From Escherichia coli (GTDB taxonomy: Bacteria > Pseudomonadota > Gammaproteobacteria > Enterobacterales > Enterobacteriaceae): a stretch of DNA of 64,000 bases. Under the pieces are notes generated by a model. That model worked only from the letters and a program-made list of their open reading frames with translations. It made no database searches and was not told the origin of the DNA. A program made the translations under genes and the position numbers. Shown here one piece after another: positions 24,438 through 27,167 of the stretch. The stretch lies in assembly GCF_003334385.1 (NCBI RefSeq), contig NZ_QOWN01000005.1; one strand, written 5' to 3'. How positions within the stretch are numbered: position 1 is the first letter of the stretch; each line of letters starts with the position of its first letter.

Positions 24438-26972
24438 TTAATTACTACCAAACATATCCTTGATCCAACCGGCTACACCGTCGCTGTCTTTCTGCTCTTG
24501 CTGAGCAGGTTGCTGTTGCGGCTGTTGCTGCGGCTGAGAAGACTGATCAAACGGATTGCCTGACGGCTGCTGCTGCATCTCGCTCTGCTGGCACAGCGAT
24601 TGCGGATCGCTGGTCCAGACCGGCAAGATACGCATGCCACCGCTGCAAACAAAGTTGCCGTCGTAGTCCACGCCCATATCTGCAATATCTTCTGGCGGAA
24701 CAAGATTCAGCGGCGTTGGCGTCTGGTTAGCCAGATAACGCTGATAAATCGACATTGCCCCGCTGGCACCATACAGTTTGGTCGGCTGGTTGTTATCACG
24801 GCCGACCCAGGTGATGGTCACCGTGCTGCCGTCAATGCCCGCAAACCAGGTATCTACGTTATTGTTGGTAGTCCCTGTTTTCCCTGCCAGATGCAGGTTC
24901 GGGTATTTCGCCCCAAGCTGACGACCCGTACCGCGTTGTACCACCTGCTGCATGGTCCATAGTGTCAGATACGCCGCCTGCGCCGGAACAGCGCGTTCCG
25001 CCTGCGGGAAGCTCTGATACAGCACTTTGCCATCTTCCGCGATTACCGAACGCAGCGCAGAAAGCGGTGCACGGTTACCACCGCTGGCGATGGTCTGGAA
25101 TGCCTGCGCCACTTCGATTGGCGTTAAGTTCAACGCCCCCAGCAGCATTGCCGGAACCGGATGCAACTGATCTTTCGGTACGCCCAGTTTAATCCAGGTC
25201 TCCGTAACCGCAGGCAGCCCCAGCGCCATCCCCAGATTTACCGTCGGCACGTTCATCGAACGGGTCAACGCATCCACCAGCATCACTCTGCCGCTTTCGC
25301 TATAACGACGGTCATCATTCTGCGGTGACCAGACCTGGCCATTCGGCTGACGCAGCGCAATTGGCGCATCCGCAATCCACGTATTCAGACGATAGATTTT
25401 CGGCTGGCTTAAGGCCGTCAGATAAGTCGCTGGTTTTGCAAGGGAACCAATCGAACGACGCGCCTGCATCGCACGGTTGTAGCCCGCAAACTGCGGCTCA
25501 GAACCTCCGACCATCGCACGAACTTCACCACTAAAGCGGTCGACGACCACAATCGCAGTTTCAAGATCGCTCAACTTACGCTGTTTCTTCAGTGCCGGAA
25601 TGCCTTCCACGGCGGCTTTTTCTGCCGCGTCCTGGGCCACCGAGTCAAAGGTAGTGAAGATCTTCACGCCGGAGAGATCTTTTACCTTATCGCCCAGTTT
25701 TGCCTGCAGCTCCTGACGCACCAGTTGCATAAAGGCTGGCTGAGGAGAGATCACCCCACCGCGCGGCTGAACCCCCAGCGGACGGGCACTCAACATGTCA
25801 TAGAGTTCTTGATCAATAATCTGTTGCTGTTGCAGCAGACGCAGCACCAGATTACGTCGCTCCAGCGCCAGTTTTGGGTTACGCCACGGGTTGTAGATGG
25901 ACGCCCCTTTCACCATACCGACTAACAGCGCCTGCTGGTCGAGGCTTAGCTCTTCTACCGGGCGACCAAAGTAATACAAGCTTGCCAGCGGGAAGCCGCG
26001 GATTTCGTTGTCGCCGCTCTGACCGAGATACACCTCGTTCATATACAGCTCAAGAATACGGTCTTTGCTGTAACGCGCGTCCATGATCAGCGCCATGTAA
26101 GCTTCGTTCGCTTTACGCCAGTAAGAACGCTCGCTGGAGAGGAACAGGTTTTTCACCAGCTGTTGCGTCAGCGTACTCGCACCCTGTACCGTGCGTCCGG
26201 CGGTCAGGTTTGCCAGCACCGCACGTCCGATTGAGTAGAGACTGATTCCATCATGCTCGTAAAAATGACGGTCTTCTGTCGCCAGCAAAGTATCCACCAG
26301 CAAATCCGGGAAACCACTGCGCGGCACAAACAGACGCTGCTCACCGTTTGGCGAAGAGATCATGGTGATCAGACGCGGATCAAGACGGAAGAAACCGAAC
26401 TGACGGTTGTTCTCCATATTGACGATCGTCGCCAGATGATCGCCATCAAAGGTCAGACGCGCGCGCACCTGTCCTTCTTTACTGTCCGGGAAATCAAACG
26501 GACGGCGAATCATCTCAATGCTGTTGGCCTGCACGGTAAATTCGCCAGGACGGGTCATTTTCGACACCTGACGATACTGGGTCGCCTCCAGCAGCTTCAC
26601 CATCTCGTTCTTGCTGATGGTCATGTCTGGCTCAAGATTGACCATTCGGCCATAAACTGCCGCAGGCAGTTGCCAGACCTTGCCATCAATACGGCTACGA
26701 ATTTTTTGATCGAGATAAACGCCGTAAATGGCGATCAGCACGGCAAAAACGATAGCCAGTTTTAGCAGTAGCCATAGCCAGCCGCGTTTGCCACGAGGCT
26801 TACGCCCTTTGCCTTTGCCCTTACCTTTGCGCGGCATCGGTTCTTCATCCTCATAGTCATCATAATCGTCGTAATCATCGTCATCTTCGTAACGACGACG
26901 GCTTACCTTTTGTTTGACCGGACGCGTCGGTTTCCCTTTGCGTCCAATTGGCTCGCGGTCATTCCCGGCCAT
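24438..26972 (-). CDS. mrcB: Penicillin-binding protein 1B (844 aa)
   Basis: ORF 24438..26987; start set to [19 protein letters not shown]...; acidic [15 protein letters not shown] and [10 protein letters not shown] stretch. Confidence 0.95.
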
Positions 26973-27069
26973 GCTTTTTCTCCGCAATATTCAGGCGCAA
27001 AAGCCCGATTTTCTGTTCTTCTGTTACAAGACAGAAGAAGATATCTCTCAAAATTTGTGCTCGATCGGT

Positions 27070-27156
27070 CCCCTCTCCCTTGAGGGAGAGGGTTAGGGTG
27101 AGGGTGAACGTGCGCGCTGATGCCCTCACCCCGGCCCTCTCCCACAGGGAGAGGGA
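27070..27156. repeat. GC-rich triple-hairpin intergenic element between hrpB stop and mrcB promoter
   Basis: ccctctccc-ttga-gggagaggg (27071-27092), gggtgaggg...ccctcaccc (27096-27131), ccctctccc-aca-gggagaggg (27135-27155). Confidence 0.6.
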
Positions 27157-27167
27157 GAAAACCAACC

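What the first reader, a model, noticed from the sequence alone, without database searches (positions are those of the whole stretch)
27013..27160. GC-rich triple-hairpin element between hrpB and mrcB
Three consecutive perfect hairpins built from polypurine/polypyrimidine arms (CCCTCTCCC/GGGAGAGGG twice, flanking GGGTGAGGG/CCCTCACCC) start 2 bp after the hrpB stop, with a further small palindrome (27013-27040) near the mrcB start. It is not a REP sequence. It generates spurious ORFs on both strands and could act as terminator, RNA stabiliser or insulator for the mrcB promoter.
Basis: seen in the sequence. Interest (0 to 1): 0.35.

Follow-up and report, generated by a model that had tools for sequence, protein, structure and literature searches.

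The report
Known Box C repeat pair, hrpB–mrcB
The "triple hairpin" between hrpB and mrcB is a real but already catalogued copy of the E. coli Box C (PIT / TM-ECO) intergenic repeat, which a quarter of E. coli strains lack and which marks a mapped end of the hrpB transcript.

Summary
Window 27071-27155 holds three perfect 9-bp hairpins and folds far better than shuffled sequence (z about -8 to -9).

It is not new. It is two inverted units of the Box C / PIT / TM-ECO repeat family. These are entries 1 and 2 of Table 1 in Holder et al. 2015 (K-12 164547-164580 and 164631-164597). They are also HPG2 no.5 and HPG1 no.6, "hrpB>>>mrcB", in Kaplan et al. 2016.

The family is dispersed: a median of 11 BLAST places per genome in 5332 of 5426 E. 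coli genomes.

At this locus the element is accessory:
- 1471 genomes (27%) have a clean 93-nt empty spacer, as do E. albertii, E. whittamii and a further Escherichia sp. genome.
- At least 3153 genomes carry the window's form.
- 32 genomes carry it in reverse orientation.
- Repeat-mediated deletion derivatives also exist.

Public Term-seq data place an RNA 3' end at window 27066(-), 5 nt after the last stem. Two other K-12 Box C loci show the same geometry.

The small palindrome at 27016-27039 is a separate feature. It is a covarying hairpin in a deeply conserved block upstream of mrcB.

A 68-aa ORF across the element is annotated publicly and is very likely spurious.

The parts
27071..27105 (+). 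Box C / TM-ECO unit, type A (second loop TTA): CCCTCTCCC-TTGA-GGGAGAGGG-TTA-GGGTGAGGG-T. This is Holder Table 1 no.2 (K-12 164631-164597) and Kaplan HPG1 no.6.
   Evidence: Sequence; regex hit identical in the window and in NC_000913.3; published table.
27122..27155 (-). Box C / TM-ECO unit, type B (second loop CCG): CCCTCTCCC-TGT-GGGAGAGGG-CCG-GGGTGAGGG-C. This is Holder Table 1 no.1 (K-12 164547-164580) and Kaplan HPG2 no.5.
   Evidence: Coordinate map: K-12 x = 191702 - window w, checked against the hrpB end.
27106..27121 (.). Central 16-nt spacer GAACGTGCGCGCTGAT between the two inverted units. The part next to unit B (CATCAGCGCGCAC on the - strand) recurs at a solo type-B locus in K-12 and in other genera, so it appears to be part of the extended unit.
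27156..27161 (-). Conserved outer flank of the B end (TTTTCT before CCCTC), shared by the B ends of other K-12 Box C loci.
27057..27070 (-). Conserved outer flank of the A end (G-ACCGATCGAGCAC; family pattern GGGGACNG...GAGC).
   Evidence: Alignment A2 of the composite elements.
27066..27066 (-). Mapped RNA 3' end of hrpB-sense transcripts (K-12 164636 +), 5 nt downstream of the last stem.
   Evidence: Adams et al. 2021 Term-seq, supplementary file 1, sheet 'M63 0.4', average read count 986.8, class 'orphan'.
26959..27165 (-). 68-aa ORF with a TTG start that runs through the whole repeat and the mrcB leader. It is annotated as a hypothetical protein in public records and is very likely spurious.
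   Evidence: The ORF cannot exist in the empty, deleted or inverted alleles.
27016..27039 (-). NOT part of the repeat. This is the small palindrome, the core of a covarying hairpin inside the conserved block upstream of mrcB (26973-27051). That block also holds the published predicted sigma-70 promoter TTGAGA (27051..27046) -17- TGTAAC (27028..27023).

Best explanation
The element is a composite copy of the Box C repeat of Enterobacteriaceae. The same family is published as PIT elements, as TM-ECO, and as the HPG1/HPG2 G-quadruplex motifs. It consists of one type-A and one type-B unit in inverted orientation, making an 85-nt near-palindrome in the 195-nt hrpB-mrcB spacer.

Shown here:
- It is identical to the published catalogue entries.
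- The family is dispersed through the genome.
- It is accessory at this locus. There is an empty 93-nt allele in 27% of E. coli genomes, in E. albertii and E. whittamii, and in a further Escherichia sp. genome. There is also a reversed allele, and there are deletion derivatives.
- An RNA 3' end maps at the foot of the structure.

Inferred:
- It was gained by an ancestor of most E. coli lineages that do not carry the empty allele, by an unknown insertion or recombination route.
- It is not needed by hrpB or mrcB.
- Its main local effect is at the RNA level. Transcribed as the hrpB 3' UTR, it folds into a very stable hairpin or set of hairpins. These stop 3'-to-5' exonucleases, or less likely pause and release RNA polymerase. 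The result is a defined hrpB 3' end about 15 nt upstream of the predicted mrcB -35 hexamer.
- At the DNA level, its direct and inverted repeats promote slippage deletions.
For: Identity:
- Both units match Holder Table 1 nos. 1 and 2 base for base and by coordinate.
- The locus is named in Kaplan Table 1.

Family:
- BLAST gives a median of 11 places per genome in 5332 of 5426 E. coli genomes, and only 43 of 58417 places are on plasmids.
- Four K-12 composites align over roughly 110-120 nt including their flanks.

Accessory status:
- The empty junction occurs in 1471 genomes.
- The window-type junction occurs in at least 3153 genomes.
- The reversed junction occurs in 32 genomes.
- E. albertii, E. 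whittamii and Escherichia sp. MOD1-EC7003 have the same 93-nt empty spacer.

Instability:
- A 64-nt deletion between the two direct CCCTCTCCC copies in strain N5D43 leaves one hairpin.
- Strain A11 has internal deletions and a truncated hrpB 3' end that is annotated as a pseudogene.
- L030 carries a single-hairpin remnant.

RNA effect:
- Folding energy is -66.3 kcal/mol, z = -8.9.
- A Term-seq 3' end lies at 164636(+), 5 nt after the stem.
- The same offset of 4 nt occurs at the Box C hairpins downstream of lldD (3781065+) and ppiC (3959467-).
Against: - The 3' end is weak (about 987 reads) and was seen in one of three growth conditions.
- 15 of the 18 K-12 Box C loci have no curated 3' end in that data set.
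- There is no U-tract. PIT elements showed no terminator activity in reporter tests, as reported second-hand in Holder et al..
- Neither stabilisation nor any effect on hrpB or mrcB expression was measured here.
- No target-site duplication or clean insertion boundary could be defined, so how the element arrived is unknown.
- 24 of 113 other Enterobacteriaceae species carry Box C in the same spacer. That could mean selection rather than neutrality.
Confidence: 0.6

Rival explanations
1. The element acts at the DNA level as a non-B structure. When a strand is unpaired, its purine-rich blocks fold back on the hairpin as an intrastrand triplex, or the four G-tracts form a G-quadruplex. This stalls polymerases and makes the locus a hotspot of rearrangement or a topological switch.
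For: - Holder et al. showed stable triplex formation by the consensus oligonucleotide (CD, NMR) and more sequence variability around TM-ECO loci than around control loci.
- Kaplan et al. showed ion-dependent switching between G-quadruplex and hairpin forms by CD.
- GGGAGAGGGTTAGGGTGAGGG is a textbook G3N3G3N3G3N3G3 motif.
- The natural alleles at this locus show deletions and a truncated hrpB.
Against: - In vivo DMS footprinting gave no protection of the guanines.
- Holder et al. report that Maher's follow-up study found no in vivo effect on replication, transcription or conjugation.
- The deletions seen here end in plain direct repeats, which slippage explains without any triplex or quadruplex.
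- In a perfect palindrome, the Watson-Crick hairpin or cruciform competes strongly with these structures.
Confidence: 0.2
2. The element is a selected cis-regulator of this locus. It could be a read-through barrier shielding the mrcB promoter, or a structured RNA recognised by the upstream gene product HrpB, a DEAH-box RNA-dependent NTPase.
For: - Box C units occupy the same hrpB-mrcB spacer in 24 of 113 Enterobacteriaceae species. In 23 of these the G-rich core is antisense to the genes. Cores were scarce elsewhere in the fetched loci (8 outside the 450 nt upstream of mrcB, in 4 of 120 loci).
- The RNA 3' end lies just upstream of the predicted -35 hexamer TTGAGA.
Against: - The element is absent from 27% of E. 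coli genomes, from three other Escherichia genomes examined, and from most genera sampled.
- Salmonella and Citrobacter hold REP-like sequence at this position instead.
- The majority E. coli orientation is opposite to the one seen in other genera.
- Shared descent within the Enterobacter-Leclercia-Lelliottia group inflates the species count.
- No data link HrpB to this RNA.
Confidence: 0.12
3. The region encodes a real 68-aa protein (probably D8B36_18480 in one MG1655 annotation). Its overexpression represses curli genes.
For: - The ORF exists and its exact sequence is deposited many times as a hypothetical protein.
- A pUC19 clone of the 68-aa coding sequence D8B36_18480, located between mrcB and hrpB, lowered csgA expression 18-fold.
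Against: - The ORF has a TTG start 2 nt after the hrpB stop, with no properly spaced Shine-Dalgarno sequence.
- The peptide is a read-out of the repeat (…TFTLTLTLSLKGEG…).
- It runs through the mrcB promoter and leader and ends inside mrcB.
- It cannot exist in the empty (27%), deleted or inverted alleles, or in other Escherichia genomes examined.
- Current RefSeq annotation lists no gene there.
- The cloned fragment also carries the repeat and the mrcB leader, either of which could cause the phenotype.
- That D8B36_18480 is this ORF is inferred from its length and position only.
Confidence: 0.03

Closest known systems
Box C, also published as PIT (potential intrastrand triplex) elements, TM-ECO, and the HPG1/HPG2 G-quadruplex motifs of E. 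coli
   Same: Everything that can be checked in sequence is the same: the three-block unit, the type A and type B loops, the inverted A+B pairing, the intergenic position and the dispersed copies. This exact locus is listed in both published catalogues.
   Different: Nothing at the sequence level.

Added here:
- The allele spectrum at this locus (empty, reversed, deleted).
- An RNA 3' end mapped at the foot of the structure, at this and two other loci.
- The same spacer occupied by Box C in other genera.
REP / BIME (PU) elements of enterobacteria
   Same: Both are short GC-rich palindromic intergenic repeats, often found in inverted pairs and located in 3' UTRs. REP hairpins are an established block to 3'-to-5' exonucleases (established knowledge). 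The 3' ends at +4 or +5 nt seen here fit the same mode of action.
   Different: - The consensus is unrelated, and no REP match falls in the spacer.
- No associated transposase of the RAYT type is known for Box C (my own knowledge).
- The copy number is far lower: 23 units against several hundred.
Miniature inverted-repeat elements of other bacteria (for example the Neisseria Correia/NEMIS elements and ERIC/IRU)
   Same: An element of about 100 nt bounded by inverted repeats, polymorphic for presence, found in either orientation, co-transcribed with neighbouring genes, and folding into a long hairpin.
   Different: No target-site duplication or defined termini could be shown, and no mobilising enzyme is known. 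Solo half-units are more common than full composites.
Intrinsic (Rho-independent) terminators
   Same: A GC-rich stem in a 3' UTR, with an RNA 3' end a few nucleotides after it.
   Different: There is no U-tract. The consensus scan found none, and PIT elements were reported as not terminating in reporter tests.

Membership tests
Box C / PIT / TM-ECO | A unit of three 9-nt blocks: pyrimidine block CCCTC(T/G)CCC, a short loop, purine block GGG(A/G)GAGGG, a loop of TTA (type A) or CCG (type B), then GGGTGAGGG. | tested here: met
   Both units fit exactly. There is one type A and one type B.
Box C / PIT / TM-ECO | Identity with a catalogued member. | tested here: met
   The sequences and K-12 coordinates equal Holder Table 1 nos. 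1 and 2 and Kaplan Table 1 HPG2 no.5 and HPG1 no.6. The coordinate map was checked.
Box C / PIT / TM-ECO | Many dispersed copies in one genome, always intergenic. | tested here: met
   Median of 11 BLAST places per genome. 12 units at 6 K-12 loci were recovered by regex at the published coordinates, all between genes. This copy lies between hrpB and mrcB.
Box C / PIT / TM-ECO | Paired sites combine one type A and one type B unit on opposite strands. | tested here: met
Box C / PIT / TM-ECO | A single strand folds as an intrastrand triplex or G-quadruplex in vitro. | not testable with these tools
   Published for consensus oligonucleotides, not for this copy. The folding tools used here model Watson-Crick pairs only.
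REP / BIME | The REP consensus GCC(G/T)GATGCG(G/A)CG… forming an imperfect palindrome of about 35 nt. | tested here: not met
   There are 14 loose matches in the window, and none lies between 26973 and 27167.
Intrinsic terminator | A GC-rich stem directly followed by a run of U. | tested here: not met
   0 terminator-like sites in 26850-27300. The stem is followed by GACCGAUCGAGC.
Mobile miniature inverted-repeat element | Presence/absence polymorphism with a clean empty site. | tested here: met
   An empty 93-nt allele occurs in 1471 E. coli genomes and in three other Escherichia genomes.
Mobile miniature inverted-repeat element | Target-site duplication and defined termini. | tested here: inconclusive
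   The filled alleles replace about 8-10 nt (AGACCAAAGC) of the empty site. No duplication is evident.
Rfam RNA families | A match to a curated covariance model. | tested here: not met
   Only far-sub-threshold hits to animal microRNA hairpin models were found, none reaching half of its gathering score.

The most novel reading that the evidence does not exclude
The pyrimidine/purine hairpins of Box C are general in vivo determinants of RNA 3' ends, working like REP elements. The copy behind hrpB is retained or repeatedly regained across Enterobacteriaceae because it does something for this gene pair. It could close the hrpB transcript just ahead of the mrcB promoter, or serve as a structured RNA handled by the DEAH-box protein HrpB, whose natural substrate is unknown. 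On this reading, the reported curli phenotype of the "68-aa protein" clone would be an effect of the RNA or DNA, not of a protein.
Probability: 0.12. Interest if true: 0.55.

Novelty: already known. Interest (0 to 1): 0.2.

Why it matters
As a discovery it matters little, because the element and this very copy have been in the literature since the 1990s-2010s.

It has practical value in four ways:
1. Annotators should mask it. It yields a 68-aa "hypothetical protein" that has entered databases, and a 2024 study of curli regulation appears to have treated that ORF as a real protein.
2. The natural filled, empty and reversed alleles give a ready-made experiment on what Box C does. That question is still open after 30 years.
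3. Public Term-seq data tie three Box C hairpins to RNA 3' ends at a fixed offset. This is a testable function that earlier reporter assays did not find.

Tried and rejected
- Rfam with permissive E-values gave only chance-level hits to microRNA hairpin models.
- The promoter and terminator consensus scan found nothing in the spacer.
- The REP consensus has no match in the spacer.
- The K-12 RefSeq record carries no repeat annotation here.
- I looked for other Box C copies or fragments in the 64-kb window. There are none. One unrelated 11-mer match lies at 63754-63764.
- I looked for target-site duplications by comparing the empty, window-type and reversed alleles. No clean boundary emerged, and I could not decide between one gain followed by inversion and two separate gains. 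Both filled types share a TAA stop and a TTTT run that the empty alleles lack. However, their A units and outer flanks differ.
- I looked for Term-seq 3' ends at all 18 K-12 Box C loci. Only 3 have one.
- I tried to confirm which ORF D8B36_18480 is, but no supplementary files are held for that paper. The identification rests on its length (68 aa) and position only.
- Two literature searches were not run because the service was busy, and one was rejected for syntax.
- The original Box C papers (Bergler 1992; Bachellier 1990s) and the Hoyne and Maher papers were not readable here. Their content is cited second-hand from Holder et al. and from PMC2267715.

Full report
**1. What is in the sequence**

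Both flanking genes read on the minus strand. hrpB is 27168..29642, with its TAA stop at 27170..27168. mrcB starts at the ATG 26972..26970. These positions match the K-12 annotation of a 195-nt spacer.

The spacer holds three perfect 9-bp inverted repeats at 27071-27092, 27096-27131 and 27135-27155, and a fourth at 27016-27039. The first three are also nested. Arms 27078-27104 and 27123-27149 are 81% complementary, so the 85 nt form one large near-palindrome.

As RNA in the sense of hrpB, the 96-nt stretch folds into a single long hairpin of -66.3 kcal/mol. Shuffled sequences average -37.8 kcal/mol, giving z = -8.9. The three hairpins folded separately sum to -58.0 kcal/mol. DNA energy parameters give the same architecture. 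The motifs are far above chance.

The gap to the hrpB stop is 12 nt rather than 2. The "triple hairpin" is the less stable of two possible folds.

**2. What it is**

BLAST of 27060-27165 against 5426 complete E. coli genomes finds a median of 11 places per genome, and up to 26. Matches occur in 5332 genomes and are almost all chromosomal. The sequence is therefore a dispersed repeat.

A full-text search for the two purine blocks led to Holder et al. 2015 (PMC4666352). Table 1 of that paper lists the 23 "TM-ECO" motifs of MG1655. Entry 1 is CCCTCTCCCTGTGGGAGAGGGCCGGGGTGAGGGC, 164547-164580, type B. Entry 2 is CCCTCTCCCTTGAGGGAGAGGGTTAGGGTGAGGGT, 164631-164597, type A. These are exactly window 27155..27122(-) and 27071..27105(+).

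The authors state that this motif is the "BoxC" palindromic repeat of the 1990s and the "PIT" element of Hoyne and Maher. They also note that five K-12 sites pair a type A unit with a type B unit in inverted orientation, and motifs 1+2 are one such pair.

Kaplan et al. 2016 (PMC5100583) rediscovered the same blocks as conserved G-quadruplex motifs. They list this locus by name: hrpB >>> mrcB, HPG2 no.5 and HPG1 no.6. An independent survey records BoxC as a known E. coli family of about 56 bp with 32 copies.

I checked the family myself. I fetched five other K-12 regions and recovered 10 further units at the published coordinates. The composite elements at ygfF-gcvP, alx-sstT and fepB-entC align with this one over roughly 110-120 nt, including the outer flanks TTTTC(T/C) at the B end and GGGGACNG…GAGC at the A end.

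It is not a REP element. It matches no Rfam family and has no terminator or promoter consensus.

**3. The locus is polymorphic**

A 621-nt query across the spacer matches all 5426 genomes but in several forms. Representative alleles were aligned:
- An empty site with a 93-nt spacer and no trace of the repeat (M160133, AR_0017).
- The window's form, and an O157 variant with point differences.
- A 64-nt deletion between the two direct CCCTCTCCC copies that leaves one hairpin (N5D43).
- A form with internal deletions and loss of the hrpB stop, annotated as a pseudogene (A11).
- A form with the whole composite in the opposite orientation (SWYHX138), confirmed in alignment A2.

Junction-specific queries count the alleles:
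- Empty: 1471 genomes.
- Window-type: at least 3153 genomes. This is an undercount, because megablast misses the O157-like variants.
- Reversed: 32 genomes.

I then scanned one genome per species with a degenerate pattern for the mrcB N-terminus, which returned 120 loci. E. albertii, E. whittamii and Escherichia sp. MOD1-EC7003 have the same 93-nt empty spacer as the empty E. coli allele. Within Escherichia the empty state therefore looks ancestral and the repeat looks like a gain.

I could not define a target duplication. I also could not decide whether the reversed allele is a second gain or an in-place inversion.

**4. How it probably works**

In the curated Term-seq table of Adams et al. 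2021 (PMC7815308), sheet "M63 0.4", there is a 3' end at 164636(+). It is classed "orphan", has an average of 986.8 reads, and its context is …CCCTCAAGGGAGAGGGGACC**G**|ATCGAGCACA. This is window 27066(-), 5 nt after the last stem of the composite. It lies 15 nt upstream of TTGAGA, which Shimada et al. 2014 give as the -35 hexamer of a predicted sigma-70 promoter (TTGAGA-17-TGTAAC) in this spacer.

I checked the other 17 K-12 Box C loci in the same tables. Two have a 3' end at the same offset:
- 3781065(+), downstream of lldD, 4 nt after GGGAGAGGG.
- 3959467(-), downstream of ppiC, 4 nt after GGGAGAGGG.

The remaining 15 loci have none. My own rough estimate is that three hits at a fixed offset among about 23 hairpins, in tables of roughly a thousand ends per condition, is far more than chance would give.

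There is no U-tract, and Maher's reporter tests reportedly showed no terminator activity. I therefore favour a REP-like mechanism, in which the hairpin arrests 3'-to-5' exonucleases after termination further downstream. This step is inferred, not shown.

The DNA-level readings rest on in vitro work by others. Their in vivo footprint was negative. The deletions seen here are explained by plain repeat slippage. These readings remain possible and are not exclusive of the RNA effect.

A required role for mrcB is unlikely, given how widespread the empty allele is.

**5. Things around it**

(a) The small palindrome is a different feature. The 82 nt upstream of the mrcB ATG are conserved across 105 distinct Enterobacteriaceae sequences. 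Its stem keeps pairing through compensatory changes: 4 pairs and 37 cells show double changes. Overall, 91.8% of cells are paired, against 44-57% when the partner columns are slid. It has no Rfam match.

(b) The 68-aa ORF 26959..27165(-) is a read-through of the repeat and the mrcB leader. It nevertheless sits in public databases as a hypothetical protein. It is probably the "D8B36_18480" whose multicopy clone reduced csgA expression 18-fold in a 2024 study. It cannot exist in the empty or rearranged alleles.

(c) hrpB-mrcB synteny holds in 113 of the 120 sampled species, and in 24 of those the spacer contains at least one full Box C core. In 23 of the 24 the G-rich core is antisense to the genes. 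This is the arrangement of the rare reversed E. coli allele, not of the window. Cores were scarce elsewhere in the fetched loci: 8 outside the 450 nt upstream of mrcB, in 4 of 120 loci. Shared descent explains part of this. The remainder suggests either a preferred landing site or retention by selection.

(d) Salmonella and Citrobacter hold REP-like sequence at this position instead.

**6. Verdict**

The feature is real and correctly described. Its identity is settled and already published, so its novelty is nil and its interest is low.

The open questions concern the family as a whole rather than this copy: what Box C does, how it spreads, and why this spacer attracts it. The natural alleles found here would make good material for answering them.

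Noticed in passing
window 26973-27051 (-), hairpin core 27016-27039: The 82 nt upstream of the mrcB ATG are conserved across 105 distinct Enterobacteriaceae sequences. The block contains a hairpin with compensatory base changes (91.8% of cells paired, against 44-57% in slid controls) and a second 5-bp hairpin (CRGGC…GCCTG). There is no Rfam match. A published predicted promoter, TTGAGA-17-TGTAAC, puts its -10 hexamer in the variable loop, and that hexamer is not conserved in other genera.
   Followed up: partly
window 26959-27165 (-): A 68-aa ORF made of the Box C repeat plus the mrcB leader is deposited in public records as a hypothetical protein (for example E. coli W WFL_00720). It is probably the 'D8B36_18480' reported in 2024 to repress curli genes when cloned on pUC19. 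The phenotype may come from the RNA or DNA rather than from a protein.
   Followed up: partly
L018, L023, L040, L043, L093, L109, L126, L032, L096, L042, L091, L049, L065, L098, L026 (spacer upstream of mrcB): Box C units sit in the same hrpB-mrcB spacer in 24 of 113 Enterobacteriaceae species. They are almost always in one orientation, directly next to the conserved TTTTGAGAGAT block. Phytobacter diazotrophicus and the strain labelled Enterobacteriaceae bacterium RIT691 carry tandem copies.
   Followed up: partly
L005 345-485; L087; 32 E. coli genomes: A rare E. coli allele carries the composite in the opposite orientation, with a different A unit (CCCTCGCCCC…) and different outer flanks. Whether this is an inversion or a second gain is not resolved. 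L030 carries a single-hairpin remnant of this form.
   Followed up: partly
K-12 3781065(+) in L012, and K-12 3959467(-): Term-seq 3' ends lie 4 nt after the Box C pyrimidine/purine hairpin downstream of lldD and of ppiC. This is the same geometry as at hrpB.
   Followed up: yes
L072, L032, L042, L091, L049, L067, L070 (between the Box C unit and the mrcB block): Several genera carry an extra palindromic module of about 45 nt (ACTAAAG-stem-loop-stem-CTTGCTGTTTATTTT) that looks like an intrinsic terminator. It is duplicated together with Box C in some species.
   Followed up: no
L064, L130, L014 (hrpB-mrcB spacer): Salmonella enterica subsp. arizonae and subsp. diarizonae and Citrobacter werkmanii have REP-like sequence (…GCCGGATAAGGCG…) at the position where E. 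coli has Box C.
   Followed up: no
L018, L040, L126 and others; window 27106-27124: The inner flank of the type-B unit reads GCGGCCTGATGC in Enterobacter and GCGCGCTGATGC in the window. This resembles the GCCTGATGCG start of Z-type REP units. It may be coincidence, or it may hint at a link between the two repeat families.
   Followed up: no
L004 (strain A11): A short deletion next to the repeat removes the hrpB stop codon. The gene is annotated there as a pseudogene lacking its C-terminus.
   Followed up: no
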